From contig CAZTZA010000004.1 of the NCBI GenBank assembly GCA_964618015.1, positions 1,440-65,439 on the forward strand: a stretch of 64,000 nt of DNA, in the 5' to 3' direction. Positions within the stretch are counted from its first letter, which is position 1. Each line of letters starts with the position of its first letter. Shown piece by piece: positions 8,089 through 37,706 of the stretch. Below the pieces are notes generated by a model. It did not search any database. It had not been told where the DNA came from and was given only the letters and a program-made list of their open reading frames with translations. Position numbers and translations under genes: made by a program. Source of the stretch: an uncultured Spirochaetaceae bacterium (GTDB lineage: Bacteria > Spirochaetota > Spirochaetia > SZUA-6 > Bin103).

Positions 8089-8104
8089 CGAGGAGATAGA
8101 AATT

Positions 8105-16668: not shown

Positions 16669-17235
16669 ATGGACTGGCCACGATGGAATGCGGTTTGGAT
16701 GTTGGCGAGTGTGGCCATTTTGATTGCCGCTATGGGTTGTAGCAACAATAAAAACGACAAGAGCCTTATGCAAGACAACCTACCGATGGCTCCGGATTTT
16801 GTATTTGAGGCCTATCAGGGCGAAGACGAGCTTGGCGGCAAGGAACTTAGTCTAAGCGACGTTATCACTTTGGTTAAACCGATCATCCTTAATTTCTGGG
16901 CAGCTCGTTGCCCTCCCTGTCAGATAGAGATGCCCGAGTTTCAGGAATACTACAATAAGCACCTCAAGAAGGTGCTTATGATCGGGATTGACGTAGGATA
17001 CTTGACCGGCCTAGGTCTACAGGAGGAGGCGATGGCGTTGTTGCAAGTGCTTGAGATCTCCTACCCGAATGTAACTACCGCTGATACCGATATCGCAGAG
17101 GCATATGAGCTCTTGGGATTACCAGCTACCTTTTTCATTAATTCTTCTGGACGCATTGTAGAATCCTGGACCGGCTTACTCACCAAGGAAAAGCTATGGG
17201 AGCTAGCGGGTATGTTGATCGACTCAGAACGGTAG
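16669..17235 (+). CDS. TlpA/ResA-like thiol:disulfide oxidoreductase, probable lipoprotein
   Basis: Thioredoxin-fold 'NFWAARCPPCQIEMPEF' (CxxC) and a lipobox-like 'IAAMGC'. The start could instead be the internal ATG at 16699. Confidence 0.75.
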   Translation: MDWPRWNAVWMLASVAILIAAMGCSNNKNDKSLMQDNLPMAPDFVFEAYQGEDELGGKELSLSDVITLVKPIILNFWAARCPPCQIEMPEFQEYYNKHLKKVLMIGIDVGYLTGLGLQEEAMALLQVLEISYPNVTTADTDIAEAYELLGLPATFFINSSGRIVESWTGLLTKEKLWELAGMLIDSER

Positions 17236-17239
17236 GAAG

Positions 17240-18094
17240 GTGGAAAGTGTAACGAGCGGCGGGCAAGGTGGATCCGGTCAAATTACTTGGTGGTTGGTGA
17301 TCTGGTACTACGTAGTACCGGTGGCAGGAGTTATAGCCGTTGTGTATATACTCACTCTCCTGCAGGCACGAGCGGAAAATGCCGCCACGGAGTTTGCACG
17401 CTCAGTTCAGCTTGGGACAGCGTTCGGAGCGGGCATAGTTGCGAGCGTCAATCCATGCGGCTTCATTATGTTACCTACATACCTGTCGTTGCAGTTAGGC
17501 ACACAGGAGTCAGGGGGCACTAATGAACCTTGGCTTCACCGGGTGGTATCGGTGGTACGCATTTCTGTCGCTACTACGATGGGTTTTATTGGCGTAGTAG
17601 CCCCAGTGGGAGTATTGGTAGCGTTAGCAGGACAGGCGCTTTCGCCAATTTTGCCGTATGCAGCGGTGACGGTAGGATCCGGAATGGTCGGGCTGGCTTT
17701 ATGGCTCCTGGTCTCCGGCCGCAAGCTTGGCATTGCCGCCGCCAGCCGTGTTCATGTAACGCCTAGTCGCAACACAGTGAATGCATTACTGTTTCGCATG
17801 ACGTATTCCATCGCATCGTTGAGCTGCGCTTTGCCAATTTTCCTGTTGGTGGTATCGACCGCACTGACTTCCGGCGGTTTTCTGTCCACGATTGCGCAGT
17901 TCGTGAGCTACGCTCTTGGAATGGGAACGGTAATCACAGTGGTCACTGTCGCTGCTGCAGCACTCCGTAACTCACTATCCCAACATTTGCGCGTGTTAAT
18001 GCCGGTCGCCAACCATGTCGGCGTACTGTTCCTCCTTGGGGCAGGAGCTTATTTGATCTACTATTGGGTATTGATAGCTCCGAACGCCTTTTAG
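17240..18094 (+). CDS. ccdA: Cytochrome c-type biogenesis protein CcdA (DsbD-like transmembrane thiol transfer)
   Basis: Multi-TM protein with the first conserved Cys in 'VNPCGFIMLPTYL' and the second in 'LSCALPIFLL'. GTG start. Confidence 0.7.
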   Translation: MESVTSGGQGGSGQITWWLVIWYYVVPVAGVIAVVYILTLLQARAENAATEFARSVQLGTAFGAGIVASVNPCGFIMLPTYLSLQLGTQESGGTNEPWLHRVVSVVRISVATTMGFIGVVAPVGVLVALAGQALSPILPYAAVTVGSGMVGLALWLLVSGRKLGIAAASRVHVTPSRNTVNALLFRMTYSIASLSCALPIFLLVVSTALTSGGFLSTIAQFVSYALGMGTVITVVTVAAAALRNSLSQHLRVLMPVANHVGVLFLLGAGAYLIYYWVLIAPNAF

Positions 18095-18149
18095 AATCCA
18101 ATGGAGATTAACCGGGCATTTGGAATCTTCCAAAGGTAATCTATTCCTG

Positions 18150-19064
18150 ATGCTATTCCTGCCTGTATCTGAAATCGAAGTTTTGCTTCCTGGATTGGTC
18201 CTGTTGGGAGGAATTGTCGGCGTTCTTACTGGTCTGTTTGGCGTGGGTGGTGGTTTTCTGCTTACGCCATCTCTCAAGTCTCTCTTTGGGGTGCCGTACC
18301 CCATCGCTGTGGGCAGCGATTTGGTGCAGATCTTTTTAACTAGCACCGTGTCTACATATCAGCATCTGCGTGCTGGAAACGTCGATCTGCGTCTCGGTTT
18401 GATACTATCAATCGGGGCAGTCGCTGGGGTTGAGGTTGGCGTGAATAGTCTTGGTGCCCTTCGTTCAATCGGGCCGGTGGCGGTTAATGGCATCAGAACA
18501 TCCTTTTTGGACTTAGCGCTGAACGGATTGTTTCTGTTCTTGTTATTGTCGGTCGCAATTATTATATGGAGAGAAGTCAAATTCTCTGGTGGCGCTACTA
18601 CGGAAACGGACACACGTGCAGCTCAATTACTTCGCAGGATAAGGTTGGGGCCCCAGATTTCATTTTCGCATTCAGAATCGGATAGCATTTCCGTTTGGGC
18701 TCCTCTTATCATCGGCTTCGGGGTTGGCATTTTGACTGGCCTGATGGGCATAGGGGGTGGAATTTTAAATTTTCCGTTGTTGATCTATGTCATAGGCCTG
18801 CCAACACGCATCGCTATCGGGACTAGTTCGCTACAGGTCGTGATTGCTTCGGGTTATGGTGCGATCCGCCACTTCATGGCAGGAAACGTTGAGTTGGTTT
18901 TAGTTCTTATTCTTTTTGTGGGATCAGTTGTAGGTGTCCAAATAGGTGTAAAATTTTCTCAACGCTTCCAGAGTCTGCGTATTCGTCGCTTGGTTGCAAG
19001 CGTACTTATACTTGCTATTGGACTAATTATATGGGATGTGAGCAAGCAGGTTTTCTCAGGTTAA
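18150..19064 (+). CDS. TauE/SafE (TSUP, DUF81) family anion exporter
   Basis: Duplicated 4-TM halves each with the 'G(x)GGG' motif ('LFGVGGGFLLTPSL', 'LMGIGGGILNFPLLIYV'). A longer ORF begins at a TTG at 18120. Confidence 0.7.
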   Translation: MLFLPVSEIEVLLPGLVLLGGIVGVLTGLFGVGGGFLLTPSLKSLFGVPYPIAVGSDLVQIFLTSTVSTYQHLRAGNVDLRLGLILSIGAVAGVEVGVNSLGALRSIGPVAVNGIRTSFLDLALNGLFLFLLLSVAIIIWREVKFSGGATTETDTRAAQLLRRIRLGPQISFSHSESDSISVWAPLIIGFGVGILTGLMGIGGGILNFPLLIYVIGLPTRIAIGTSSLQVVIASGYGAIRHFMAGNVELVLVLILFVGSVVGVQIGVKFSQRFQSLRIRRLVASVLILAIGLIIWDVSKQVFSG

Positions 19065-19369
19065 GATATGTGTTGACTATACAAGTGTCGGCGATGAAGA
19101 TTCCTGAAAGTTTTTTATCTTTTGTGATCTCCGAATCGCACAGAAGATGGATGAGGGGTTCTGCTGCATCTATCTTATGAACTGTTCGCCCTGCTACTCT
19201 CTGAGTGGGAGGGATATAATGGAAGTTCTCACTGAACTTCTTTCCAGGATTCAATCAAATGTAATCAGTAGTAGTGCTGAGTAATCACGAAGAGCCGGTC
19301 GGGATATCTATATGGCTATCTAACTCGCACTAGTGGACAAGAATTTTGGCAAATTAACGAGGAGACACT

Positions 19370-20407
19370 ATGAGCACAGGGATTAGGGTCGGCGTGATAG
19401 GGGCCGGGGCCAACACACGGAGTATGCACATTCCGCGGCTGCAGGCGATCGACGGTGTTACGGTGATGAGTGTTTGTAATCGATCTCACGAGTCTGGCGC
19501 GAAAGTAGCCGCCCAGTTTGGAATTCCGGAAGTACTTCCTTCCTGGCGATCTGTGGTAGATGCGGACGACGTGGATGCGATCGTGATAGGGACCTGGCCT
19601 TATCTGCACAAAACGGTTTCGATCGCTGCACTGGAGTCTGGAAAGCATGTGCTGTGCGAGGCTCGTATGGCGTGCGATGCTGCGGATGCACAGCTGATGC
19701 TCAGAAGCTCGCGTGAACAACCAGAGTTGGTTGCGCAGCTTGTACCGTCACCGATGACTCTGCGAGTCGATCGCACTATTCAGCGACTGATTGGCGATGA
19801 ATTCCTGGGAGACCTGCTGGCCGTGGAAGCGCGGATTTATAGTGGATTTCTTGATCGCACGGCCCCCCTGCACTGGCGTCAGGACGCTGAGTTGTCCGGC
19901 CGCAATATCATGACCATGGGTATTTGGTATGAAGCAATGATGCGTTGGGTAGGTACAGCTAGTCACGTTTCTGCTATGGGAAAGACTTTCGTGTCGCGCC
20001 GTCTTGATGCGTCCGGAATATTACGGGATGCAATAGTACCAGAGCATATTGACGTCACTGGCGAACTGCACTGCGGTGCACAGCTCCATATGCAAATTTC
20101 AGCCGTGGCGGGGCTTTCAGGATCCTCAGAGGTATTCCTGTTTGGATCTGACGGCACAATTCGCTACGATGGTGGCACCGACACGGTCTGGGTCGGAAGC
20201 CGTGAGGAAAAGGCGCTCACGGAGGAGGAGGTGCGTCCTGGTGAAGCGCTTTCCTGGCGGGTAGAGGAAGAATTCGTTGCCGCCATCCGTGGTGAGGAAC
20301 AGGTTGTGCTGACACCATTTAGCGTTGGATTGCAGTATATGGAATTCACCGACGCCGTGGCGCGTAGTATCGCTCAACGGCAGGTAGTCCCGGTGGGACT
20401 TGCATAG
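19370..20407 (+). CDS. Gfo/Idh/MocA family NAD(P)-dependent sugar oxidoreductase
   Basis: 'IRVGVIGAGANTRSMHIPRL' Rossmann N-terminus and the 'EKP' -> 'ESGKHVLCE' motif. Confidence 0.8.
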   Translation: MSTGIRVGVIGAGANTRSMHIPRLQAIDGVTVMSVCNRSHESGAKVAAQFGIPEVLPSWRSVVDADDVDAIVIGTWPYLHKTVSIAALESGKHVLCEARMACDAADAQLMLRSSREQPELVAQLVPSPMTLRVDRTIQRLIGDEFLGDLLAVEARIYSGFLDRTAPLHWRQDAELSGRNIMTMGIWYEAMMRWVGTASHVSAMGKTFVSRRLDASGILRDAIVPEHIDVTGELHCGAQLHMQISAVAGLSGSSEVFLFGSDGTIRYDGGTDTVWVGSREEKALTEEEVRPGEALSWRVEEEFVAAIRGEEQVVLTPFSVGLQYMEFTDAVARSIAQRQVVPVGLA

Positions 20408-20432
20408 CACAGTATCCTAAGTTTAGACGGTC

Positions 20433-21212
20433 ATGGATTTTTTTGCGCTCGCTTTACTAATGATTGTTGGTGTTATGGGCGGCTTCTTGAATACGGTGGC
20501 TGGCGGTGGCAGTGCACTAACCATGCCGATGCTGATCTTCTTAGGATTGCCGTCCACCGTGGCCAATGGCACGGCACGGGTAGCGATTATGTTTCAGAAC
20601 ATAACTGCTGTTGCTAGTTTTAAAGGAAAGGGGCACTTCGAGCCGGTGCTTAGTCTTCAACTGGGAATACCGGCTCTATTGGGAGCTTTAGTTGGCTCAC
20701 GGATTGCAATTCAACTCCCCGATTCGGTATTTAACACCGTCCTATCCGGTGTAATGGTTCTGGTTCTGATTTCAATCTTTTTTAAGCCTAACCGGATCGT
20801 TGCAGAACCTGACACTTCGCACTCAGGTCTTACTCGAGAACGGCGCTTCGGGATCATGGCGATTTTCTTTGTCATTGGCGTATACGGAGGATTTATCCAG
20901 GCAGGGGTCGGTTTTTTGATCATGAGTTCGCTGATTTTTCTTAGTAGCTACAATCTAGTGCGTATCAATGCAATAAAAGTGTCTGTGATTTTAGTTTTTA
21001 CTGTAGCAGCGCTTATTGTTTTCCTGCTGAATGGAAAAGTGGCATGGGGCCCAGGACTAATACTAGCCTTAGGCAACGCCGCTGGCGCTTGGTTGGGAGC
21101 ACGCTTTTCAGTAGCGGGCGGCGAGTCATGGATCCGAGTGTTCCTTGTGGTTGCCGTTCTTGTGATGGCAGTAAGAGTTTCTGGGCTACTGGAGTTGCTG
21201 GGCATCGTATAG
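20433..21212 (+). CDS. TauE/SafE (TSUP) family anion exporter, second copy
   Basis: 'LLMIVGVMGGFLNTVAGGGSALTMPMLIFLGL', 8 TM. Sits 26 nt after the oxidoreductase. Confidence 0.7.
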   Translation: MDFFALALLMIVGVMGGFLNTVAGGGSALTMPMLIFLGLPSTVANGTARVAIMFQNITAVASFKGKGHFEPVLSLQLGIPALLGALVGSRIAIQLPDSVFNTVLSGVMVLVLISIFFKPNRIVAEPDTSHSGLTRERRFGIMAIFFVIGVYGGFIQAGVGFLIMSSLIFLSSYNLVRINAIKVSVILVFTVAALIVFLLNGKVAWGPGLILALGNAAGAWLGARFSVAGGESWIRVFLVVAVLVMAVRVSGLLELLGIV

Positions 21213-21228
21213 CTTGGTGCGTTGGGGT

Positions 21229-22023
21229 ATGGTCCATTTGATTATGCCTGTAAAAGAAAACGCGGTAGTGCGTAAGCTTGCGGCTGGTGAGGTTCCGATT
21301 GGGGTGCTCGGGACCGACGCGGTTCATGAGTCCCATATAGAGCTCTTGCAGGAAGCTGGTTATGACTTTCTTATGTTTGATGGCGAGCACGGCGATTTCC
21401 CATCTGATCGTATCTCTTCGATTTGTCGCATTGGACGTCTAACCGGGTTCCCGGTGATTCTGCGAACGTTTTGCACTTATGAGCACATTCGCCGTGCATT
21501 GGATCTTGGCTCGCTCGGTGTGATCTTGCCAATGGTTGATACCGCTGAGCAAGTTGACACAATACGTCGTGCAGCTTTTATGCCTCCAATTGGTGAGAGG
21601 GGCCCAGGGGGTCACGGTAATCATCATGTTAGCGACTATCGTCGCGAGACCTGGGCGGAGCTGGAGGAGCAGTTGGCTATCATTCCGATGATAGAGACGC
21701 CGGGTGCTCTCCAAAATTTATCGATATTTGATCAACCTTGGGTAACTGCTTGCTTGGTTGGGCCGTACGATTTTTTGATGTCTCATGGCATGGATTTGAC
21801 CAATTTCTATCAGCCCGGAGGTTCACATGAATCGATAGTGCGTCGCGCTATCGATGGATGTGTGGCAATAGGAAAACCGTGTGGCACAGTAGTCGCCAAC
21901 GCAAAGATGGCGGTACGCTGGATAGGTATGGGTGCGAAGCTTATCGTCTGTGGTGAGTTGAATAGGATGATAGTTGATGCAGCAGTTCATAACATTAAAG
22001 TCATCAAGCACGAGACCGGCTAA
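21229..22023 (+). CDS. HpcH/HpaI family aldolase (2-keto-3-deoxy-sugar-acid aldolase, class II pyruvate aldolase)
   Basis: 'GVLGTDAVHESHIELLQEAGYDFLMFDGEHGDF' and 'ILPMVDTAEQVDTIRRAA' match HpcH/HpaI/YfaU (KDR aldolase). A TTG at 21214 directly follows the TauE stop; the ATG is at 21229. Confidence 0.7.
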   Translation: MVHLIMPVKENAVVRKLAAGEVPIGVLGTDAVHESHIELLQEAGYDFLMFDGEHGDFPSDRISSICRIGRLTGFPVILRTFCTYEHIRRALDLGSLGVILPMVDTAEQVDTIRRAAFMPPIGERGPGGHGNHHVSDYRRETWAELEEQLAIIPMIETPGALQNLSIFDQPWVTACLVGPYDFLMSHGMDLTNFYQPGGSHESIVRRAIDGCVAIGKPCGTVVANAKMAVRWIGMGAKLIVCGELNRMIVDAAVHNIKVIKHETG

Positions 22024-22033
22024 CGTTTAGCCC

Positions 22034-23062
22034 ATGGCGGATCACCCCCTGTACCCAACCGAACTTATAGGCAGCTATGCTTTGCCTGGCTGGCTAATTG
22101 CCTTCGAAGAACGAGCTGCTGCAGAAGATCTCGGCGATTCAGATATCGGCGAGGCACTTGATGACGCAGTTAACGTGGCATTATTTGATCAGGAGCGCGC
22201 TGGCGTAGACGTAGTCACCGATGGTGAGATGCGACGTCGCGACTTTATTCAGGGATTTTACGGTCGCATTACCGGCCTAACATCTCTGCCACCCAAGCGT
22301 TTGTTAGGGGCTGCTGGTTACGACCAAAACCCGCGTTACCGGGTTGACGGACAGCTTTGCGCCACAGGCGGCCTTGGTATTTGCGCCGAGGTGGATTATC
22401 TGCGCCATCTTACTGATAAACCGATCAAGGTTTGTGTGCCAGGCCCGGTTACCATGTCATTACCACTTTTACTTCCGGATGGCGGACGAAGTCGCGATGC
22501 AGTGCTGGCTGATATGATTTCCATTATTAACGCCGAGATGCAATCTCTAGTAGCTGCCGGCGTTACCTATTTGCAGATCGATGAGCCGCGGTATGCTACC
22601 AGCCACGCTGCCGGAGAAGAGTTAGTAGAGGTATTGAATGCAACTTACGATGGAGTGAAGGCCCGGGTCGGCGTGCACTTGTGTTTCGGCAATTTCAAAG
22701 GTCGCTCACGAGATCGTCGAGACTACCGATACCTTTTCCCAGCACTTAAAAAGGTGCGCTGTAGTCAACTCAATTTCGAGTTTGCTAACCGCGAGCTATC
22801 ACAGATTGAATTGTTGGCAGAAGTACCAGCGTCGATCGATGTGGGCGTTGGGGTGATAGACGTGAAGTCCTACTACGTGGAGCGGGCTGAAGAAGTGGCC
22901 ACTGCCCTGGAGAAGGCCGCCCTCCATATTGACGCTACCCGAATAGTCGCTGTCCCAGACTGTGGACTTAATCACTGTCCACGTCATATTGCCCGTGCCA
23001 AACTACGGGCGCTGACTGCCGGTGCGCAGATAGCTCGGCAGCGAGAAGGAGTGGGCCCATGA
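22034..23062 (+). CDS. MetE C-terminal-domain-like Zn-dependent thiol methyltransferase (cobalamin-independent methionine synthase family, stand-alone ~340 aa)
   Basis: URO-D/CIMS-like C-terminal domain with the Zn-ligand motifs 'HLCFGNF' (HxC) and 'PDCGLNHCPRH' (Cys). The N-terminal region 'PTELIGSYALPGW' corresponds to MetE 'TTTIGSFPR'. Confidence 0.6.
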   Translation: MADHPLYPTELIGSYALPGWLIAFEERAAAEDLGDSDIGEALDDAVNVALFDQERAGVDVVTDGEMRRRDFIQGFYGRITGLTSLPPKRLLGAAGYDQNPRYRVDGQLCATGGLGICAEVDYLRHLTDKPIKVCVPGPVTMSLPLLLPDGGRSRDAVLADMISIINAEMQSLVAAGVTYLQIDEPRYATSHAAGEELVEVLNATYDGVKARVGVHLCFGNFKGRSRDRRDYRYLFPALKKVRCSQLNFEFANRELSQIELLAEVPASIDVGVGVIDVKSYYVERAEEVATALEKAALHIDATRIVAVPDCGLNHCPRHIARAKLRALTAGAQIARQREGVGP

Positions 23063-23397
23063 AACGATACGGATCAATCATAGGCGTGCGGCAAGAAAAG
23101 CTCGAGGAGTACGTACAGTTGCATAGTGCTGTATGGCCGGAAGTGTTGGATTGTATCCATCGGTGTAATCTCCGCAATTACTCAATTTTCCTGCGTAAAA
23201 TGCCCGACGGAAAGCATTATTTATTCTCCTACTTTGAATACGTCGGGACCGATTTCGCTGCTGATATGGCAGCAATGGGACGGGATCCTAAGACGAAGGA
23301 ATGGTGGAAACTAACCGACCCATGTCAGGAGGCGCTGCCAGACCGCGCAGAGGGTGAATGGTGGTCAATGGCTAAAGAAGTGTTCCACGTCGATTAG
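23059..23397 (+). CDS. rhaM: L-rhamnose mutarotase-like (RhaM family, ~110 aa)
   Basis: 'HSAVWPEVLDCIHRCNLRNYSIFL' matches RhaM '[24 protein letters not shown]', and 'WWKLTD' matches 'WWKYMTD'. Its start overlaps the upstream stop (ATGA). Confidence 0.75.
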   Translation: MKRYGSIIGVRQEKLEEYVQLHSAVWPEVLDCIHRCNLRNYSIFLRKMPDGKHYLFSYFEYVGTDFAADMAAMGRDPKTKEWWKLTDPCQEALPDRAEGEWWSMAKEVFHVD

Positions 23398-24121
23398 AAA
23401 GCCAACAAGCCCGGAGAAGAGAAATATCGTCGCTATAGGTGGTGGCGGATTTGCGGCAGATGGTGACCTGAAAATAGAGAACTACATTCTGAAGATGACT
23501 CGTGTTCATCGTCCCTCAATAGGTTTTATCCCGACTGCAACAGGTGATGCAACTGAATATATAATAAGATTCTACGACGTCTGTTCTCGTCTATCCTGCC
23601 GACCAACCCATCTTGGGATGTTTGCGCGGACGCCTGATCTGCGAGAGTGGGTGTTTGCGCAGCATGTAATCTTTGTCGGTGGTGGCAATACGAAGAGCAT
23701 GCTGGGGGTATGGCGAGAGTGGGCGCTTGACGAGGTTCTGCGAGATGCATGGGAGAGCGGTGTTATCCTGTCGGGCGTCAGTGCTGGGGCAATCTGTTGG
23801 TTTGAGCAGGGCAGTACGGACTCTTATGCTAACTGCCTTACGTCGCTCGACTGCCTTGGGTTTTTATCTGGGAGCTGCTGTCCTCACTATGATGCTGAGG
23901 AAGAGCGACGTCCGACGTTCCAACGGATGCTGAGGGAAAGAAAGATCAGTTCCGGTATTGCGTTGGACAACGACTCGGCTGCTCATTTTGTTGGTACGAA
24001 TCTGCATCAAGTTGTGTCTGCGCGGCCTGGATCCCAGGGGTATAGGGTCTATGTTCTCGATGGAGAAGTGCAGGAGGTGCCTCTGAAAACCGTTTATCTT
24101 ACCTCTTCTAAATGCACTTAA
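23354..24121 (+). CDS. Peptidase S51 (dipeptidase E/cyanophycinase-like, class-I glutamine-amidotransferase fold)
   Basis: 'IVAIGGGGF', 'VIFVGGGNT' and the nucleophile elbow 'GVSAGAICW'. The start is unresolved and overlaps the rhaM 3' end. Confidence 0.55.
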   Translation: MNGGQWLKKCSTSIRKPTSPEKRNIVAIGGGGFAADGDLKIENYILKMTRVHRPSIGFIPTATGDATEYIIRFYDVCSRLSCRPTHLGMFARTPDLREWVFAQHVIFVGGGNTKSMLGVWREWALDEVLRDAWESGVILSGVSAGAICWFEQGSTDSYANCLTSLDCLGFLSGSCCPHYDAEEERRPTFQRMLRERKISSGIALDNDSAAHFVGTNLHQVVSARPGSQGYRVYVLDGEVQEVPLKTVYLTSSKCT

Positions 24122-24161
24122 GTGATCAACTTTACGGTCCATTTGTTGTAGGAGTAATAAC

Positions 24162-25088
24162 GTGATTCATCGATTTCTCATTGGTATCTCATCTAGCAAC
24201 GGCACGCCGCGCGCTCAGGTTGACTTGGACGGCGCGGGTAAGCGTCACCTTGGCATTCAGCGGTTCGTGCTATCCGACGGTACTGATGCCGTCTTGCCCG
24301 ATCATCCTACTTGGGATTGTCGCGAGTGGCAGTGGTGGGCTGGTTATGACGGCTCGACGGAGATGAGGCCGCGCACAGAATCTGCAGTATGCGGAGGTTC
24401 TGAACGTGACGATGTAGCCGAGGTTTGGAGCGAGTATCTTTGTGACGGCGTACGGACGCGACACGTATGGACTGTTCCTACTGTTCAAGAGCCACCGAGT
24501 CTTGGTTACGATTGTTTCATCACTGTCACTAATGAAACGGGGACTGACCTTAGAGAGTATGGTCAGTTCTTCGCCTGCTACACTAGTCTCAACCGGACCA
24601 TGGGTAAAAGGCCTGCTCGGTCGGATGCAATAGGCTGCTGGTTCTGGGATGGATCAGGAAGTTTAGTCAATTTCCTCGCGATCGGTGGTTACCATATAGA
24701 TCGCCTAATCGTTGACCCAGAAAGTGTCTATTCGAAGATAGGCATGGTTCCCCATTGCCCGCGTGGAGATGGTCGCGTCGGCGGGGTTTGGACGCACCCA
24801 GTAATAGTTTCTCATCCAGCTCCAGGTGGTGAGCGTCATATTATCCTTCTCGAGCCAGGAACTACCGCAGCAGTGTGTATGGGTATGGGAGGACTAGCGA
24901 TGGACTACATTGTCTTTCCAGGGTCTCTCGTGTTCGCTGCTGGAAGCAGCAGTAGGACCAGGGTTAGGCACTATGTCATGCCCCTTCCAGAAGGCAAAGA
25001 GATCGAACGTTTAAGCGAGCTCTGGGCAGAATTCGAAATAGACCTCCATCAGCCATGGCCGACTATCGGTCCAACGCAGGCTAAATAG
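24162..25088 (+). CDS. Hypothetical protein, 308 aa, Trp/Cys/Gly-rich, no recognisable family
   Basis: Long ORF with a GTG start 40 nt after the upstream gene, co-oriented with the operon. I recognise no motif. Confidence 0.45.
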   Translation: MIHRFLIGISSSNGTPRAQVDLDGAGKRHLGIQRFVLSDGTDAVLPDHPTWDCREWQWWAGYDGSTEMRPRTESAVCGGSERDDVAEVWSEYLCDGVRTRHVWTVPTVQEPPSLGYDCFITVTNETGTDLREYGQFFACYTSLNRTMGKRPARSDAIGCWFWDGSGSLVNFLAIGGYHIDRLIVDPESVYSKIGMVPHCPRGDGRVGGVWTHPVIVSHPAPGGERHIILLEPGTTAAVCMGMGGLAMDYIVFPGSLVFAAGSSSRTRVRHYVMPLPEGKEIERLSELWAEFEIDLHQPWPTIGPTQAK

Positions 25089-25119
25089 TAGAGGTTTTAT
25101 AGGAGTTCCATCCCATTGA

Positions 25120-25137
25120 CACTGCTATTTAGCAGTG
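25120..25137. promoter_or_regulatory. Perfect 8-2-8 inverted repeat CACTGCTA-TT-TAGCAGTG overlapping a TTGACA -35-like hexamer (25116–25121), upstream of the sugar ABC transporter genes
   Basis: Palindrome read directly from the sequence, 107 nt upstream of the permease ATG at 25244. Confidence 0.5.
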
Positions 25138-25243
25138 AGATGCTGGGGGATCTGCCTAACTCTGGGGACGGATTTGATTACTAATCTTTGTTTTACGAAA
25201 ATTTTTTATAGTGGTTTAACTTTGAGTGAGTTGGGTTTAGCTG

Positions 25244-26248
25244 ATGTCTGACGGCTCTACTGCACCAGCTAGTCTTACTGGTGACGCCCAAGTGGGCGAT
25301 TCTCTGCAAAAGGGGAAAGCTGGTCGACGGTCGATTGGTTCTCGCTGGGCGGAAAATATTGACTTAATACGTCGATATCCTGCCCGTCACATCATGCTCG
25401 CTATCGCCCTAGTGTGGCTGATTATATTCCACTACATCCCAATTTGGGGCATTACATTTGCCTTTAAAAGATTCAGCCCAATCGAGGGGTTCTTCGGTGG
25501 TGATTGGGTGGGGCTCAAGTATTTCGGGCAATTTGTCACGGACCCCAACACACTCCGGCTGATACGTAACACAGCCATATTAGGATTCCAGCAGCTTTTA
25601 TTCGGATTCCCAGCGCCAATAATGTTCGCGATCTTGCTCAACGAGCTGGCGAATGGGCGTTTTAAAAATTGGATGCAGTCCTTTACCTACCTGCCACACT
25701 TCGTTTCTCAGGTAGTGATTGTCGGACTGATGTTCCAGCTCGTAAATTTTGAAGGATTTATCACGAGGATCATTGCAGATATAACCGGCTCAGCGCCCGT
25801 AATCCTTTCTGATCCAGGTGCCTTCCGGCCGATGTATATTATTTCTGGACTTTGGCAAAACCTAGGCTGGGGGTCGATTCTCTACCTGGCGGCGATGACT
25901 GGGATCAACCCAGAGCTATACGAGGCAGCGGATATCGATGGAGCTGGTCGATTCCAAAAGATATGGCGTGTGACGTTGCCTGCCATTCTACCGACAATTC
26001 TGGTGCTTCTTATTCTCAATACCCGGTCGCTAATTGATGTCGGGTTCGAGAAGGCTCTCCTAATTCAAAATCCTGCTACTTACGAGACATCAGACATAAT
26101 TCAGACGTACGTTTATCGTCGGGGTATCCAAAATGGTCAATATGGTTATGCGACTGCTGTCGGTTTGCTGAACTCTATTATCTCGTTCTCCATCGTTTAC
26201 GCGACCAATAGGATTGTGCGAAAAGTCCGGGGTCAAGGGCTCTGGTAA
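25244..26248 (+). CDS. Carbohydrate ABC transporter permease, LplB/YtcP-like (MalF-type)
   Basis: 6-TM protein with an EAA-like loop 'LYEAADIDGAGRFQKIWRVTLPAI'. The long N-terminal cytoplasmic region is typical of LplB. Confidence 0.8.
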   Translation: MSDGSTAPASLTGDAQVGDSLQKGKAGRRSIGSRWAENIDLIRRYPARHIMLAIALVWLIIFHYIPIWGITFAFKRFSPIEGFFGGDWVGLKYFGQFVTDPNTLRLIRNTAILGFQQLLFGFPAPIMFAILLNELANGRFKNWMQSFTYLPHFVSQVVIVGLMFQLVNFEGFITRIIADITGSAPVILSDPGAFRPMYIISGLWQNLGWGSILYLAAMTGINPELYEAADIDGAGRFQKIWRVTLPAILPTILVLLILNTRSLIDVGFEKALLIQNPATYETSDIIQTYVYRRGIQNGQYGYATAVGLLNSIISFSIVYATNRIVRKVRGQGLW

Positions 26249-26250
26249 CG

Positions 26251-27201
26251 ATGGTACACGCGCATCACAAGTCATTTGGATCTAGGCTTTTTGACATTGC
26301 CAATTCATTCTTTATTCTTACCATTGGTCTAACAGCGCTGTACCCATTTCTCCATATGGCAGCGATATCTACGAGCGATTTCTTTGCTGTCGGATTTGGT
26401 AAAGTAAGTATACTTCCTGTTGACTTCAGCCTAGATATCTATACTTACCTGTTTCAGTATAATCCATTTATCGGTCGTGCTTACTTTAATTCTATTCTAT
26501 ATACTGTTTTAAACACTTTCCTCACGGTCTTGCTGTGCGCTATGGCCGGCTTTGCCCTTGCGCAACGTAGATTAGCATTTCGCGGATTCTCGGGAACCCT
26601 ATTGTTGGTCTCAATGTTCTTTGGGGGTGGCCTGATCCCGACCTTTCTGTGGATTAGAGAGCTCGGTATGTTGAATTCAATATGGTCAATCGTGCTGCCG
26701 AACGCGGTGGCGGCCTACTATGTATTTCTATTTCGGGTTTATATCCACAGTAACGTTAGTGAGGAGATTCTGGAGTCCGTTTACATCGATGGTGGCGGGG
26801 ATTTTCGAGTTTTCTTCAAGATTGTAATGCCCCTTATCAAGCCGATGATAGCAACGATTGGGTTATTTGCGGCCGTAGCCATGTGGAATTCTTTTTTCAG
26901 TGCTCTAATATATTTAAGCGACCGTAACAAGTACCCGCTAACGCTTTTCTTGAGGGAAGTAGCCGTGATCGGTGGCTTTGGAGGATCCAGTGTAGGTGGC
27001 CCTGATGCGGGTGCGGAGCAGCTCACTGCCTATGAGATGGAGGGACAGTTCGACGCTTCTCTTGAAGTATGGCAGGGCGGTTATTTGAAGGCAACGCAGA
27101 TGGCATTCACGCTGATCACTGTAATTCCGGTTCTCTTTGTGTACCCATTTGCACAGCGATATTTTGTTAAAGGTATCACAATAGGGTCTGTAAAAGGATA
27201 A
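26251..27201 (+). CDS. Carbohydrate ABC transporter permease, LplC/YtcQ-like (MalG-type)
   Basis: 'ESVYIDGGGDFRVFFKIVMPLIKPMIATIG' EAA region. Starts 2 nt after the upstream permease. Confidence 0.8.
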   Translation: MVHAHHKSFGSRLFDIANSFFILTIGLTALYPFLHMAAISTSDFFAVGFGKVSILPVDFSLDIYTYLFQYNPFIGRAYFNSILYTVLNTFLTVLLCAMAGFALAQRRLAFRGFSGTLLLVSMFFGGGLIPTFLWIRELGMLNSIWSIVLPNAVAAYYVFLFRVYIHSNVSEEILESVYIDGGGDFRVFFKIVMPLIKPMIATIGLFAAVAMWNSFFSALIYLSDRNKYPLTLFLREVAVIGGFGGSSVGGPDAGAEQLTAYEMEGQFDASLEVWQGGYLKATQMAFTLITVIPVLFVYPFAQRYFVKGITIGSVKG

Positions 27202-27295
27202 CGTGCTTGAGTTGCATTTGCACTGTTTGCTAAACTGCGTTGTTACGATAAGCTGATTATTTGCAGTTTAATAGAAACGTAAGGAGGCATTCGTT

Positions 27296-29014
27296 ATGAA
27301 ACAACGGCTTTTCCGTTGGGTGGTACTCTTAGCAGGTCTGATGATCGTATCAGCCGGCGCGTGGTCTGAGGGAAGCTCTGACGCGGCGTCAGGTGAGCCA
27401 CCGGTGATTGTTTGGTCGGGGTTCTATGAGTTTAATAAAAACGCTACCCCAGAAACCTTGGTGATGCAGTGGATTGGAGAGGCTACTGGTTCCGTTCTCC
27501 AGCCGATGCATGTCGAACAAGGAGATAGGGCTACCTGGTGGAGCACCACCTTGGCATCCTTGGATTTCCCAGACGTGATGGAATACTGGGGTCAAATGGG
27601 CGATGATCCAAATATTTACGGCCCACAAGGTCTATTTGTTCCTCTATCTGAGGAGCGAGCAGAAGGGCGCATGCCCAACTTCGATCGGGTGATGACACAC
27701 TGGGATGCAGATAACTTTCAACGTTTTGCACCAGATGGGCACGTTTACATAGCCACTAAGATAGAAGGGCGGTTTATTCAGCCAAAGGTACCGGGATTCG
27801 TACTTCGCAGTGACCTAATGGATGCAGCAGGGTATGACACCAGTATCCCTAATCAGTTCACGACTATCGACCAGGTGCAGCATGCGCTTATCGCTATGAA
27901 GCCGCATTGGGACGCTATGTTTGGTGGACCGACTCCTGGTATGCATACCCGCGGTGACCGTGGTATTCGCAACAGTGGTCAGCTGCCTCGTGTTATCTAT
28001 AAGGACGAGTTCGCTGCTGATACCGCGATGCAGCTAGAGCCAGATAACGTCTGGCGGTTTGGTCCTCTTAGCCCTCGCTTCAAGCGTGCTACTGAGTTTC
28101 TCAGGGCGATGCACGAAGCTGGTATTCTGCACCCCGATTACCTGACGATGGCTGAAAAAGATCAGCGTCGACTTGACTGGGATGAAGGCAAGACCATGTA
28201 CTGGTGGGGTACTTGGGCTAGTAGTATCGAGCCTACTCAGGCTGAGAGATATTGTAGCCAAGGTACGGGCGGCGATGCATTCTGCGGTTTTTCTTCCTAT
28301 CCGGTTGTTGCTCCGACGGTAGATGGAGATGACCCCTGGATCCGGCAGCGCTCGATTGCAAGTTCGCGCGCGGTACTATCCGCTGACGGAGATAACGTTG
28401 CGAGCGCAGTAGCTATGCTCGACTTCCTTTACAGTGATGAGGGCGCTACGATTGCGTCATATGGTCCTGAGGGCTATGCCTGGGAATTCGATGATACTCC
28501 AGGAAACGACTGGAATCGCCGATGGACTTTGTGTTGGAGCGGTTCATATCCGGCACTAGAGTGCCAGGAGAACGATCCAGATCGCTCTAAGACTCGCGGT
28601 GAGATGATCGGCGAGGGCCCGCAGGTATTAATACAGGGCGGACCATCTGATACATGGGGGATGGACTGGACCAATTATTATTGGGATCCAGCTGACCTCG
28701 AAGGCAAGAAGGCTGATCGGGCCGTCACCCTACAGACTTGGAGCGATTGGCGCGCAGCCGGTAGTTGGGCTCTTGATCCCGTACCTGCCTTTGGCTTTGA
28801 GCCTGACGAGTTAGACGAGAAGGCTCAATTGGAGCAGCAGTTGCACACCTATGTTGATGAGCAGATCGCACGATTTATCAACGGTCAGAACAATATGCAC
28901 AGCGACTACAGAGCTTTTACGAGTCGTCTCAATGATCTAGGCGCAGCTCGGTTGGCAGAGATCTACAATACGGCGATGAATCGGTACCTGGACGCTGCGG
29001 GTATCTCACTTTAA
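27296..29014 (+). CDS. Extracellular solute-binding protein, family 1, large LplA-like (~570 aa), secreted
   Basis: Signal peptide 'VVLLAGLMIVSAGAWS', AGGAGG RBS, and the size and Trp-rich composition typical of LplA-type polysaccharide-fragment binding proteins. Confidence 0.7.
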   Translation: MKQRLFRWVVLLAGLMIVSAGAWSEGSSDAASGEPPVIVWSGFYEFNKNATPETLVMQWIGEATGSVLQPMHVEQGDRATWWSTTLASLDFPDVMEYWGQMGDDPNIYGPQGLFVPLSEERAEGRMPNFDRVMTHWDADNFQRFAPDGHVYIATKIEGRFIQPKVPGFVLRSDLMDAAGYDTSIPNQFTTIDQVQHALIAMKPHWDAMFGGPTPGMHTRGDRGIRNSGQLPRVIYKDEFAADTAMQLEPDNVWRFGPLSPRFKRATEFLRAMHEAGILHPDYLTMAEKDQRRLDWDEGKTMYWWGTWASSIEPTQAERYCSQGTGGDAFCGFSSYPVVAPTVDGDDPWIRQRSIASSRAVLSADGDNVASAVAMLDFLYSDEGATIASYGPEGYAWEFDDTPGNDWNRRWTLCWSGSYPALECQENDPDRSKTRGEMIGEGPQVLIQGGPSDTWGMDWTNYYWDPADLEGKKADRAVTLQTWSDWRAAGSWALDPVPAFGFEPDELDEKAQLEQQLHTYVDEQIARFINGQNNMHSDYRAFTSRLNDLGAARLAEIYNTAMNRYLDAAGISL

Positions 29015-29042
29015 GCGCCAGGTCTCTTGACGAGGCTGATGA

Positions 29043-29085
29043 CGGTCGGACTGGGGCGGATGCTTCAGTCTGACCGTTTTTTTTT
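29043..29085 (+). terminator. Rho-independent terminator after the binding-protein gene
   Basis: 11-bp stem CGGTCGGACTG / CAGTCTGACCG with one G·U pair, a 12-nt loop, then T9. Confidence 0.7.
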
Positions 29086-30732: not shown

Positions 30733-30789
30733 AAAGTTGTTTTCTCTGCTATCAATAAGATAGACAGAGCTACGGATATTCTAAGAGAA

Positions 30790-37621: not shown

Positions 37622-37706
37622 ATGGACACTCTATCGTTTACCGCTGTCAGACTGAAACCCTCACACCGATGGTTTTCACCAATGAGTTGAGGTATCGAGG
37701 TCTATT

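What the first reader, a model, noticed from the sequence alone, without database searches (positions are those of the whole stretch)
18120..25088. Tightly coupled operon: TauE – Gfo/Idh/MocA – TauE – HpcH aldolase – MetE-like Zn methyltransferase – RhaM mutarotase – S51 peptidase-like – unknown
Seven to eight co-oriented genes are separated by ≤40 nt (305 nt between the first TauE and the oxidoreductase), with stop/start overlaps at 21212/21214 (TTG) and at 23059 (ATGA). The set combines the tools of a non-phosphorylative 6-deoxy-sugar acid route (mutarotase, sugar 1-dehydrogenase, KDR-type HpcH aldolase) with two TauE/SafE anion exporters. In described sulfoglycolytic pathways, TauE homologues export sulfolactate or sulfite. 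The operon also carries a stand-alone MetE-C-terminal-like Zn/thiol methyltransferase and an S51 peptidase-fold protein. I know of no characterised sugar or sulfonate pathway that contains those last two. The operon reads straight into an LplABC-like sugar ABC importer and two secreted FG-GAP/ASPIC proteins. My working hypothesis is an undescribed catabolic route for a sulfonated or thio/methylthio-substituted deoxy-hexose such as a sulfoquinovose-like compound. The organic product would be cleaved by the aldolase and an anionic sulfur fragment exported.
Basis: partly seen in the sequence, partly recalled or inferred. Interest (0 to 1): 0.78.

Follow-up and report, generated by a model that had tools for sequence, protein, structure and literature searches.

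The report
Aldolase, short MetE, fucose mutarotase operon
An uncultured marine spirochaete keeps a tight five-gene block that places an uncharacterised short methionine-synthase-like enzyme between a pyruvate aldolase and an L-fucose-type mutarotase; the gene calls are right, but nothing found here specifically supports the proposed sulfosugar pathway, and the open question is what this enzyme uses as methyl donor.

Summary
It is composite, however. In ten related "Spirochaetia" MAG loci only TauE2–HpcH aldolase–short MetE-like–mutarotase–S51 peptidase (20433-24121) stays contiguous. Its junctions measure -65 to +52 nt, whereas all flanking junctions vary from 20 to 5104 nt.

The "RhaM" is 51% identical to a solved L-fucose mutarotase. 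The aldolase keeps its catalytic residues but has no close relatives outside this clade. The unknown ORF has a galactose-mutarotase-like fold. The Gfo/Idh/MocA protein lacks the family's EKP lysine. The lactonase and dehydratase steps are missing from the operon.

The MetE-like protein keeps all zinc and homocysteine ligands and has no folate domain. It falls below every curated methionine-synthase model. It belongs to a rare clade (57-65% identity across about seven phyla) that sits next to HpcH aldolases, methylaspartate ammonia-lyase, peptidases, or a second RhaM/FG-GAP sugar cluster.

The sulfosugar reading has only family-level support. Best reading: a fucose-type sugar module joined to a folate-independent homocysteine methyltransferase whose methyl donor is unknown.

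The parts
16669..18094 (+). Upstream thioredoxin-like (16669-17235) and CcdA/DsbD-like membrane protein (17240-18094). Context only, not part of the module.
   Evidence: Pfam AhpC-TSA/Redoxin 7e-15; DsbD_TM weak at 0.005. The gene order is kept in relatives.
18120..19064 (+). TauE1, a TSUP/TauE-family membrane transporter (314 aa).
   Evidence: Pfam TauE 3.6e-44. It lies 26 nt after the CcdA-like gene here. In relatives it is 20-2656 nt from CcdA and 24-3238 nt from GFO. It is only 27% identical to TauE2 over a partial alignment.
19370..20407 (+). Atypical Gfo/Idh/MocA oxidoreductase (345 aa).
   Evidence: Pfam 6e-20. All NCBIfam equivalogs are far below cut-off; the best is levoglucosan dehydrogenase at 66 against 650 bits. 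The clade conserves 'CEARMA' where two paralogues in the window have EKP, and 'GIWYEA' where they have GxHxxD.
20433..21212 (+). TauE2, a TSUP/TauE-family transporter and first gene of the invariant five-gene block.
   Evidence: Pfam TauE 3.9e-40. The junction to HpcH is -4 to +41 nt in all 10 relatives.
21244..22023 (+). Divergent HpcH/HpaI class II (metal-dependent) pyruvate aldolase. The ORF opens at TTG 21214, the public call starts at ATG 21229, and the conserved start is ATG 21244.
   Evidence: Pfam 5.5e-12. NCBIfam HpaI 82 bits and KDR aldolase 77 bits, both far below cut-off. Best PDB hit is YfaU, 1.9e-21. H49, R74, E151 and D176 are invariant. Only 8 protein clusters share at least 70% identity, all within the clade; the next hit is 28%.
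22034..23062 (+). Short ('core') MetE-type Zn/homocysteine methyltransferase-like protein (342 aa) without a folate-binding N-terminal domain.
   Evidence: Pfam Meth_synt_2 5.9e-29. PDB 3rpd (MesD) 4e-40 at 31% identity. H215, C217, E249, C310 and S14, E65, D183 are invariant in 32 sequences, mapped using PMC7857596. All NCBIfam methionine-synthase models score below cut-off.
23059..23397 (+). FucM-type (RhaM-family) L-fucose mutarotase-like protein, overlapping the MetE-like stop codon (ATGA).
   Evidence: Pfam rhaM 3.9e-30. PDB 7byu/7byw 'L-fucose mutarotase' 5e-35 at 51% identity. The YiiL rhamnose mutarotase equivalog scores 41.6 against a 99.6 cut-off. The -4 overlap is kept in 8 of 11 related loci.
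23354..24121 (+). S51 'peptidase E'-like serine peptidase, last gene of the invariant block.
   Evidence: Pfam 9e-46. The GxSAG and PH motifs align with Lmo0363. It belongs to a very large, widespread family (7897 hits, about 55% identity) that stands alone in unrelated contexts elsewhere.
24162..25088 (+). Protein of a rare family with a galactose-mutarotase-like beta-supersandwich fold (308 aa). It is adjacent to S51 only in this genome.
25244..29014 (+). CUT1-type sugar ABC importer: two permeases (25244-26248, 26251-27201) and a large binding-protein-like ORF (27296-29014).
   Evidence: BPD_transp_1. Weak NCBIfam hits to GlcT/GlcU, UgpA/E and MalF/G. The binding protein resembles family-1 solute-binding proteins 5gub/5gx6/5xs8 at 5e-8. 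The order is conserved in relatives.
29041..29078 (+). Terminator-like hairpin (17-bp stem followed by a T run) after the binding-protein gene.
29086..32328 (+). Two FG-GAP beta-propeller proteins with N-terminal hydrophobic segments. The first carries an ASPIC/UnbV domain. The second carries an N-terminal CAGCH motif.
   Evidence: Pfam FG-GAP_3 about 7e-36, UnbV_ASPIC 1.5e-14. PDB 9etn CRTAC1 4e-14. An FG-GAP/ASPIC gene directly follows the MetE-like gene in an unrelated lineage.
36518..40046 (-). Candidate missing steps on the opposite strand: an acid-sugar dehydratase-type enolase (36518-37621) and an Amidohydro_2::class-III aminotransferase fusion (37707-40046).
   Evidence: MR_MLE_C 2e-61. 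NCBIfam arabinonate dehydratase 193 bits and L-rhamnonate dehydratase 136 bits, all below cut-off. The Amidohydro_2 half has no NCBIfam hit.

Best explanation
The region is a composite carbohydrate-utilisation island of an uncultured, probably marine host-associated 'Spirochaetia' lineage.

Its selected unit is a five-gene operon: TauE2 transporter, class II pyruvate aldolase, short MetE-type enzyme, FucM-type mutarotase and S51 peptidase. This operon is flanked by loosely attached neighbours. Upstream are TauE1 and an atypical Gfo/Idh/MocA protein. Downstream are a mutarotase-fold protein, a sugar ABC importer and FG-GAP/ASPIC proteins.

Shown here: the families; intact catalytic or ligand residues in the aldolase and the MetE-like protein, plus the serine and histidine motifs of the S51 protein; and the clade-wide contiguity of the block.

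Inferred pathway: an L-fucose-configured 6-deoxy (or 6-substituted) sugar is imported and anomerised by the mutarotase. It is oxidised and dehydrated by enzymes that lie partly outside the operon. The resulting 2-keto-3-deoxy acid is split by the aldolase into pyruvate and an aldehyde.

Inferred role of the MetE-like protein: it binds zinc and L-homocysteine as MetE and MesD do. It therefore most likely makes methionine from a methyl donor that is not a folate. The donor is probably a small carboxylated methyl compound that arises in, or is imported with, this catabolic route. The roles of TauE2 and S51 are not resolved.
For: - Families and spacing.
- Block contiguity: junctions are -65 to +52 nt in all 10 related MAG loci, while every flanking junction varies from 20 to 5104 nt. 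The ATGA coupling of the MetE-like and mutarotase genes is kept in 8 of 11 loci.
- Mutarotase: 51% identical to solved L-fucose mutarotase 7byu.
- Aldolase: H49/R74/E151/D176 are invariant, and YfaU is the best solved relative.
- MetE-like protein: zinc ligands H215/C217/E249/C310 and homocysteine ligands S14/E65/D183 are invariant in 32 sequences, mapped through 3rpd (PMC7857596). There is no N-terminal folate domain.
- Independent recurrences of the association. A RhaM domain, FG-GAP/ASPIC and GFO genes surround the orthologue in a Latescibacterota/Handelsmanbacteria-type lineage. HpcH aldolases of a different subfamily (24-27% identity) lie beside it in L044 and L027.
- Carbohydrate character of the island: the unknown ORF has a galactose-mutarotase-like fold; a sugar-type ABC importer follows; an acid-sugar dehydratase-type enolase, further GFO genes and a GHL10 gene lie on the other strand.
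Against: - No lactonase or dehydratase lies in the operon. The candidates are 12-15 kb away on the other strand, score below curated cut-offs, and were not checked for conservation in relatives.
- The GFO protein lacks the EKP lysine and the GxH histidine of its family. In relatives it is often separated from the block by 0.25-2 kb of inserted DNA, a MazE/PIN toxin-antitoxin pair in L001.
- The aldolase fails the KDR-aldolase equivalog cut-off by a wide margin, 77 against 441 bits.
- The most frequent partner of the MetE-like subfamily elsewhere is methylaspartate ammonia-lyase together with C45, M20 and amidohydrolase peptidases, not sugar enzymes. In Poribacteria the gene has no sugar-related neighbours.
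- No methyl donor or donor-supplying partner is identified.
- S51 orthologues elsewhere stand alone, so S51 may be a passenger.
- Operon status is inferred from spacing and synteny only.
Confidence: 0.42

Rival explanations
1. The cluster is a sulfo-Entner-Doudoroff-like route for a sulfonated 6-deoxy sugar such as sulfoquinovose or sulfofucose. HpcH would act as the KDSG or KDSGal aldolase, an enolase-type enzyme as the dehydratase, and the TauE proteins would export sulfite or sulfolactate.
For: The published KDSG and KDSGal aldolases are PF03328 (HpcH). The sulfogalactonate dehydratase SfcF is PF13378/PF02746. Those clusters carry an ABC importer and use a TauE homologue for sulfite export (PMC12421959). 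The window has an HpcH aldolase, two TauE genes, an ABC importer and a PF13378 enolase at 36518-37621.
Against: All matches are at family level only. No PF13561 dehydrogenase lies in the operon. No PF08450 lactonase, sulfoquinovosidase, sulfolactaldehyde dehydrogenase or reductase, or SuyAB was found among the scanned ORFs of the window. The mutarotase is FucM-type rather than aldose-1-epimerase type. TauE is a broad family. The model does not explain the MetE-like or S51 genes. The MetE-like subfamily elsewhere has no sulfonate-related neighbours.
Confidence: 0.12
2. The block is centred on homocysteine and methionine, not on a sugar. A homocysteine-containing or methyl-bearing small peptide or amino-acid derivative would be cleaved by the S51 peptidase. 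The homocysteine would be methylated by the MetE-like enzyme, and the carbon skeleton would be funnelled to pyruvate by the aldolase. The mutarotase-family protein would have a non-sugar role.
For: Across lineages the MetE-like subfamily lies beside peptidases or amidases of six different families: S51, C45, M20, M19, a Xaa-Pro-dipeptidase-like amidohydrolase and GGT. It also lies beside a bona fide methylaspartate ammonia-lyase, TIGR01502 414 bits against a 286 cut-off. The homocysteine ligands are conserved. A Cys/Met-metabolism PLP enzyme and an Opp-type peptide importer lie in the same window at 4544-10222.
Against: The mutarotase is 51% identical to a solved L-fucose mutarotase. The block sits among sugar genes. 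S51 is generic and stands alone elsewhere. No SAM or B12 riboswitch lies in 18900-25400. No methylaspartate ammonia-lyase is present in the window or in the related spirochaete loci.
Confidence: 0.2
3. There is no common pathway. The genes are neighbours through shared ancestry and compaction, and the MetE-like gene is simply the organism's B12-independent methionine synthase.
For: Synteny was shown only among genomes at 60-88% protein identity. The tight join to the unknown ORF and the ABC genes is unique to this genome. S51 and TauE are generic families. In Poribacteria the MetE-like gene has no related neighbours.
Against: Every flanking junction has accumulated insertions, but none of the four internal junctions has in 10 loci. 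The ATGA coupling is conserved. RhaM, FG-GAP and HpcH neighbours recur in unrelated lineages with non-orthologous copies. The subfamily was found at only 28 loci among 185,579 species genomes. That count is a lower bound because the search was pattern-based, but it fits an accessory gene better than a housekeeping one.
Confidence: 0.2

Closest known systems
Folate-independent 'core' methionine synthases MesA-MesD (Price et al. 2021, PMC7857596); nearest solved structure is MesD, PDB 3rpd
   Same: A single Meth_synt_2 barrel of about 340 aa with no folate-binding N-terminal domain. The zinc ligands are His-Cys-Glu-Cys. [quoted passage not shown]
   Different: Only 31% identical to MesD. It scores below the curated cut-offs of all short methionine-synthase models: 202/406, 167/392 and 101/258 bits. 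No DUF1852 (MesX) gene was seen in the annotated loci. No adjacent Meth_synt_1 subunit or corrinoid protein gene was seen there either. The genomic partners are aldolases, a mutarotase, methylaspartate ammonia-lyase and peptidases.
Non-phosphorylating L-fucose and L-rhamnose pathways (FucM/FucA/FucB/FucC/FucH; LRA1-4), as summarised in PMC11199699
   Same: A RhaM-family mutarotase close to the solved L-fucose mutarotase. A pyruvate-releasing aldolase of the same family as L-KDR aldolase YfaU. An enolase-type acid-sugar dehydratase and an Amidohydro_2 domain lie in the same island.
   Different: The dehydrogenase candidate belongs to the GFO family and has an altered active-site motif. The lactonase and dehydratase candidates lie outside the operon on the other strand and score below threshold. 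From my own knowledge, not checked here: the described L-KDF aldolases (FucH) belong to the DHDPS/NAL family, not to HpcH. The known pathways contain no MetE-like, S51 or TauE genes.
Sulfoglycolytic and sulfofucolytic Entner-Doudoroff pathways (PMC12421959)
   Same: An HpcH-family aldolase, an enolase-family dehydratase (as in the sulfofucose route), an ABC importer and TauE-type exporters (one search compared).
   Different: No SDR dehydrogenase in the operon, no PF08450 lactonase, no sulfolactaldehyde- or sulfolactate-processing enzymes and no sulfoquinovosidase were found. The mutarotase belongs to a different family.
MetE-like/FG-GAP-ASPIC/cupin::RhaM cluster of a Latescibacterota/Handelsmanbacteria-type lineage (loci L003, L036, L037; uncharacterised)
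   Same: It contains the orthologous MetE-like gene (63-64% identity), a RhaM-family domain, an FG-GAP/ASPIC protein and GFO dehydrogenases.
   Different: It has no HpcH, TauE or S51 genes. It adds Amidohydro_2, AP_endonuc_2 (IolE-like), a 2-hydroxyacid dehydrogenase and DUF6785. The shared families are not close orthologues: FG-GAP is about 28% identical, and the GFO genes were not detected at E<1e-8.

Membership tests
Core (folate-independent) methionine synthase / MetE catalytic domain | Zinc ligands equivalent to E. coli MetE H641, C643, E665 and C726 | tested here: met
   H215, C217, E249 and C310 are invariant in 32 subfamily sequences. They align to the HxC, E and C positions of 3rpd.
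Core (folate-independent) methionine synthase / MetE catalytic domain | Homocysteine-binding Ser, Glu and Asp (3rpd S22, E73, D188) | tested here: met
   S14, E65 and D183 are invariant. They were mapped through the 3rpd alignment using the residue list in PMC7857596.
Core (folate-independent) methionine synthase / MetE catalytic domain | Absence of the N-terminal folate-binding barrel | tested here: met
   The protein is 342 aa, and Meth_synt_2 covers residues 8-331.
MesA, MesB, MesC or MesD specifically | Sequence membership, meaning a score above the curated model cut-off or more than about 30-33% identity within the family | tested here: not met
   PRK04326 202/406, PRK09121 167/392 and PRK00957 101/258 bits. 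Identity to MesD 3rpd is 31%. Which NCBIfam model corresponds to which Mes family is my assumption.
MesD system | Adjacent MesX (DUF1852) partner | tested here: not met
   No DUF1852 was found in the Pfam-scanned ORFs of the window or in the annotated related loci.
Split MetE | Adjacent Meth_synt_1-only subunit | tested here: not met
   No such gene lies next to any orthologue examined.
YxjG/YxjH-type short MetE homologues | Match to PRK06520 or PRK06233 | tested here: not met
   47 and 43 bits against cut-offs of 313 and 576.
Methionine synthase activity | Methyl transfer to homocysteine, and the identity of the methyl donor | not testable with these tools
   Needs an enzyme assay or complementation of a metE metH mutant.
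HpcH/HpaI class II pyruvate aldolases | Catalytic His and Arg plus the two metal-binding carboxylates (YfaU H49, R74, E153, D179) | tested here: met
   H49, R74, E151 and D176 are invariant in A2, which includes canonical HpcH proteins.
2-keto-3-deoxy-L-rhamnonate aldolase (YfaU/RhmA) equivalog | Score above the NF007521 cut-off | tested here: not met
   76.7 against 441 bits.
RhaM-family mutarotases, FucM subtype | Full-length similarity to the solved L-fucose mutarotase | tested here: met
   7byu 5.4e-35 at 51% identity over 111 columns. The L-rhamnose mutarotase equivalog TIGR02625 is not met, 41.6 against 99.6 bits.
Non-phosphorylating L-fucose/L-rhamnose pathway | Sugar 1-dehydrogenase, lactonase and dehydratase encoded together with the mutarotase and aldolase | tested here: inconclusive
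   The GFO gene is present but has EAR instead of EKP. An enolase-type dehydratase and an Amidohydro_2 domain lie only 12-15 kb away on the minus strand and score below threshold.
Sulfoglycolytic/sulfofucolytic ED pathway | SDR SQ/SFuc dehydrogenase (PF13561), PF08450 lactonase, PF00920 or PF13378 dehydratase and PF03328 aldolase in one cluster, plus sulfolactaldehyde or sulfolactate processing | tested here: not met
   Only PF03328 lies in the operon. PF13378 is 12 kb away. No PF08450, PF00920, aldehyde dehydrogenase or SuyAB was found among the scanned ORFs. The family list comes from PMC12421959.
TauE/SafE (TSUP) transporters | Pfam PF01925 membership; substrate is sulfite or a sulfonate | tested here: inconclusive
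   Family membership is met for both copies. The substrate cannot be inferred from sequence.
Peptidase S51 (PepE / cyanophycinase) | S51 domain with the nucleophile Ser (GxSAG) and the catalytic His | tested here: met
   Pfam 9e-46. GVSAG and PH align with the Lmo0363 motifs. The PepE and cyanophycinase equivalog cut-offs are not met. The third triad residue was not checked.
Gfo/Idh/MocA sugar dehydrogenases | EKP motif lysine and the downstream Asp/His catalytic pair | tested here: not met
   'CEARMA' and 'GIWYEA' are conserved in six clade orthologues. The two paralogues in the window have 'EKP' and 'GxHxxD'. The Rossmann GxGxxG motif is present.
Aldose 1-epimerase (for ORF 24162-25088) | Sequence membership and catalytic His/Glu | tested here: not met

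The most novel reading that the evidence does not exclude
The MetE-like protein represents a fifth, uncharacterised family of folate-independent methionine synthases. It would take its methyl group directly from a small catabolic intermediate or nutrient. Candidates are a carboxyl methyl ester, an O-methyl deoxy sugar or sugar acid, or a methylated aspartate-type compound. The donor would not be a pterin or a corrinoid protein. Catabolic demethylation would thereby be coupled to methionine synthesis. The different partner sets (HpcH aldolase with FucM; methylaspartate ammonia-lyase with peptidases; GFO, RhaM and FG-GAP) would be alternative routes that deliver the donor or dispose of its demethylated carbon skeleton.
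Probability: 0.2. Interest if true: 0.75.

Novelty: new variant of a known kind. Interest (0 to 1): 0.5.

Why it matters
The methyl donors of several short methionine synthases are still unknown; Price et al. 2021 left the donors of MesC and MesD open. This clade keeps the complete zinc and homocysteine site. It is embedded and translationally coupled in catabolic operons in several uncultured phyla, which narrows the search for a non-folate, non-corrinoid donor to a testable set of compounds. For sponge-type and other marine symbionts it would link polysaccharide or osmolyte breakdown to methionine supply. For annotation, the labels 'methionine synthase', 'rhamnose mutarotase' and 'sulfite exporter' on these genes should not be read as a sulfosugar pathway.

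Tried and rejected
- **Riboswitch control.** An Rfam scan of 18900-25400 at E<=1 found nothing. The only hit in the window is an FMN riboswitch at 62921-63066. No SAM or B12 control is evident.
- **Conserved leader upstream of GFO.** Only the ribosome-binding site aligns among relatives.
- **Possible pseudogene.** One public scaffold shows the MetE-like gene split in two. This is a 10-N scaffold gap, not a frameshift.
- **Fold of the unknown ORF.** The single-sequence model was useless, pLDDT 35. It was solved only with an alignment of remote homologues.
- **Cultured carriers.** The best PLSDB plasmid hit to the MetE-like protein is 35% identical and is annotated generically, as a methionine synthase or a uroporphyrinogen decarboxylase family protein.
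- **Literature.** Searches for the gene combination and for MetE-like plus methylaspartate ammonia-lyase found nothing relevant.
- **HpcH context in other phyla.** This could not be done because the protein has no close relatives outside the clade.
- **TauE1 as part of the upstream Trx/CcdA unit only.** Rejected as a firm claim. In three relatives TauE1 lies 24-37 nt from GFO and more than 1 kb from CcdA.
- **Simple ORF calling in relatives.** Greedy longest-ORF calling failed because of long spurious antisense ORFs. tblastn anchors were used instead.
- **AFDB fold search.** Unavailable.

Full report
**1. Observation**

ORF listing and profile searches confirm the + strand string.

| Coordinates | Gene | Key evidence |
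|---|---|---|
| 18120-19064 | TauE1 | Pfam TauE 3.6e-44 |
| 19370-20407 | Gfo/Idh/MocA | Pfam 6e-20 |
| 20433-21212 | TauE2 | Pfam TauE 3.9e-40 |
| ORF from 21214 to 22023 | HpcH/HpaI aldolase | Pfam 5.5e-12 |
| 22034-23062 | Meth_synt_2-only protein | Pfam 5.9e-29 |
| 23059-23397 | rhaM family | Pfam 3.9e-30 |
| 23354-24121 | Peptidase_S51 | Pfam 9e-46 |
| 24162-25088 | Unknown ORF | no Pfam or NCBIfam hit |

Downstream follow two ABC permeases, a binding-protein-like ORF and two FG-GAP proteins, one with an ASPIC domain.

The ATGA overlap at 23059-23062 is real. The claimed overlap at 21212/21214 is not. The TAG ends at 21212 and the TTG follows after one base. The conserved N-terminus of the aldolase corresponds to ATG 21244, and the public gene call uses ATG 21229. 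S51 has no canonical start codon after the rhaM stop. GTG 23354, which overlaps rhaM by 44 nt, is the only candidate.

A strong terminator-like hairpin lies at 29041-29078, between the binding-protein gene and the FG-GAP genes.

**2. Source and relatives**

An identical aldolase is on record from a 65.5-kb NCBI/ENA contig and from a metagenome scaffold. A 1.6-kb contig labelled 'marine metagenome' is 99% identical. A pattern scan of one genome per GTDB species found nine loci from eight MAGs labelled 'Spirochaetia bacterium', with 0.8-7.4-Mb contigs and 79-82% identity for the MetE-like protein. The other hits (57-64% identity) come from Poribacteria, Latescibacterota, Handelsmanbacteria, Planctomycetota, Alphaproteobacteria, Gemmatimonadota and Acidobacteriota. 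A sponge association is my inference, based on the accompanying Poribacteria MAGs. It agrees with reports that sponge Spirochaetota, Poribacteria and Latescibacterota are polysaccharide degraders enriched in fucosidases (PMC8163846).

**3. What is conserved**

tblastn anchors in ten related loci give a clear picture. The junctions TauE2|HpcH, HpcH|MetE-like, MetE-like|RhaM and RhaM|S51 are always -65 to +52 nt. The ATGA overlap is kept in 8 of 11 loci.

| Flanking junction | Range in relatives | This window |
|---|---|---|
| CcdA\|TauE1 | 20-2656 nt | 25 nt |
| TauE1\|GFO | 24-3238 nt | 305 nt |
| GFO\|TauE2 | 29-1975 nt | 25 nt |
| S51\|unknown ORF | 2984-5104 nt | 40 nt |
| unknown ORF\|ABC | 821-2152 nt | 155 nt |

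In L001 the GFO|TauE2 junction holds a MazE/PIN pair. The S51|unknown ORF junction in L001 holds a convergent M16 peptidase, a toxin-antitoxin pair and an AAA ATPase. The selected unit is therefore the five-gene block 20433-24121. The compact eight-gene appearance is peculiar to this genome.

**4. The individual proteins**

*Mutarotase.* It matches PDB 7byu/7byw 'L-fucose mutarotase' at 5e-35 and 51% identity. It is below the cut-off for the L-rhamnose mutarotase equivalog. [quoted passage not shown] The link between the PDB entry and that paper is my inference.

*Aldolase.* It is a divergent HpcH member. YfaU is the best solved relative at 1.9e-21. The catalytic H49, R74, E151 and D176 are invariant. 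Close homologues (at least 70%) exist only in this clade, and the next hit is 28% identical.

*GFO protein.* It carries 'CEARMA' and 'GIWYEA' where two paralogues in the same window have the canonical EKP and GxHxxD motifs. This is conserved in the clade. A conventional sugar 1-dehydrogenase role is therefore doubtful.

*S51.* It has the GxSAG and PH motifs. It belongs to a very large, widespread 'peptidase E' family, whose members elsewhere stand alone in unrelated contexts.

*TauE1 and TauE2.* They are only 27% identical over a partial alignment.

*Elsewhere in the island.* An enolase of the acid-sugar dehydratase type lies at 36518-37621 on the minus strand; its best model is arabinonate dehydratase at 193 bits, below cut-off. 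Next to it is an Amidohydro_2::aminotransferase fusion. Two more GFO genes and a GHL10 gene also lie on that strand.

**5. The MetE-like protein**

It has no N-terminal folate domain. Through the alignment to MesD (3rpd, 4e-40, 31% identity) it keeps two sets of residues. These are the zinc ligands H215/C217/E249/C310 and the three residues S14/E65/D183 that Price et al. identify as holding homocysteine. All seven are invariant in 32 subfamily members. It scores below the cut-off of every curated methionine-synthase model and is not YxjG-type. No MesX, Meth_synt_1 subunit or corrinoid protein gene is adjacent in any annotated locus. No SAM or B12 riboswitch precedes the operon. No plasmid in PLSDB carries a member.

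**6. Contexts of the subfamily elsewhere**

- *(i) A Latescibacterota/Handelsmanbacteria-type lineage.* The order is Amidohydro_2, AP_endonuc_2, GFO, 2-hydroxyacid dehydrogenase, MetE-like, FG-GAP/ASPIC, (AKR), cupin::RhaM, DUF6785, GFO. The FG-GAP/ASPIC gene follows within 1-2 nt.
- *(ii) Planctomycetota, Alphaproteobacteria and many metagenome contigs (at least 16 loci).* A bona fide methylaspartate ammonia-lyase (414 bits against a 286 cut-off) lies nearby in varied order and orientation. It is often accompanied by C45, M20 and Xaa-Pro-dipeptidase-like amidohydrolases, or by a TRAP transporter plus an M19 dipeptidase.
- *(iii) L044 and L027.* HpcH aldolases of another subfamily (24-27% identical to the window's) lie beside the gene.
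- *(iv) Five loci.* A convergent FAD_binding_2/Succ_DH_flav_C flavoprotein is the neighbour.
- *(v) Poribacteria.* No related neighbours.

The MetE-like/RhaM/FG-GAP/GFO association and the MetE-like/HpcH association each recur with non-orthologous partners. That argues for functional coupling. The dominant ammonia-lyase and peptidase context argues against a role restricted to sugars.

**7. Interpretation**

The best-supported reading is a fucose-type carbohydrate module. It combines import, anomerisation and aldol cleavage to pyruvate with a folate-independent homocysteine methyltransferase of a new subfamily, whose methyl donor is unknown.

The steps that are shown are the families, the intact catalytic or ligand residues of the aldolase and the MetE-like protein, and the contiguity of the block. 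The steps that are inferred are the substrate, the order of reactions, the methyl transfer itself, and the roles of TauE2 and S51.

The sulfosugar hypothesis keeps family-level plausibility. The KDSG and KDSGal aldolases are HpcH-family, the sulfogalactonate dehydratase is enolase-type, and TauE exports sulfite (PMC12421959). It has no specific support, however, and it leaves the MetE-like gene unexplained.

A homocysteine- or peptide-centred reading and a no-common-pathway reading remain open.

**8. Verdict**

The finding is moderately interesting: an uncharacterised variant within a known enzyme kind, embedded in a conserved but lineage-restricted operon.

Noticed in passing
window 19370-20407 (and orthologues in L001, L007, L008, L011, L013): This Gfo/Idh/MocA protein has 'CEARMA' in place of the canonical EKP motif and 'GIWYEA' in place of GxHxxD. 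Two paralogues in the same window (33241-34227 minus strand, 41044-42078 minus strand) are canonical. The change is conserved across the clade, so it is not a sequencing error.
   Followed up: partly
L017, L021, L028, L031, L034, L038, L042-L044, L046-L048, L050, L053, L054, L058: The orthologous MetE-like gene forms a recurrent gene pair with a bona fide methylaspartate ammonia-lyase (TIGR01502 414 bits against a 286 cut-off). Order and orientation vary. C45, M20 and amidohydrolase peptidases often accompany the pair. I know of no pathway that joins these two enzymes.
   Followed up: partly
window 30790-32328: This FG-GAP propeller protein has an N-terminal hydrophobic segment followed by a CAGCH (CxxCH haem-c type) motif. 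A thioredoxin-like/CcdA-like pair, the kind used in cytochrome c maturation, lies upstream at 16669-18094.
   Followed up: no
window 37707-40046 (minus strand): A 779-aa fusion of an Amidohydro_2 domain with a class-III aminotransferase that resembles glutamate-1-semialdehyde aminomutase. It lies next to an acid-sugar dehydratase-type enolase at 36518-37621. The Amidohydro_2 half matches no NCBIfam model.
   Followed up: partly
window 24162-25088: A rare protein family (53 representatives in 1.84 billion) with no Pfam model. It folds confidently (pLDDT 92.9) as a galactose-mutarotase-like supersandwich but has no invariant His or Glu.
   Followed up: yes
window 62921-63066 (minus strand): An FMN riboswitch (93 bits, above the gathering score) lies upstream of RibD-like and lumazine-binding/DHBP-synthase genes at 60450-62887.
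   Followed up: no
window 63247-63969 (minus strand): The bacillithiol biosynthesis deacetylase BshB1 passes its equivalog cut-off (254 against 182.5 bits). This suggests a bacillithiol-type low-molecular-weight thiol in this 'Spirochaetia' lineage.
   Followed up: no
L035 3552-3561 (window 22242-22253): A public scaffold of the same population shows the MetE-like gene as two ORFs. The cause is a 10-N scaffold gap replacing 12 bases, not a frameshift.
   Followed up: yes
L001 7688-8372 and 12088-20021; equivalent gaps in L007-L015: The junctions around the five-gene block are insertion hot spots in relatives. In the annotated relative L001 they hold MazE/PIN and DUF6364/PIN toxin-antitoxin pairs, AAA_14/DUF4143 ATPases and a convergent M16 peptidase. 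These genes are absent from the corresponding junctions in this window.
   Followed up: partly
window 4544-10222: A Cys/Met-metabolism PLP enzyme (resembling methionine gamma-lyase or O-succinylhomoserine sulfhydrylase, below cut-off) lies next to an Opp-type peptide ABC importer, 12-17 kb upstream of the MetE-like gene.
   Followed up: no
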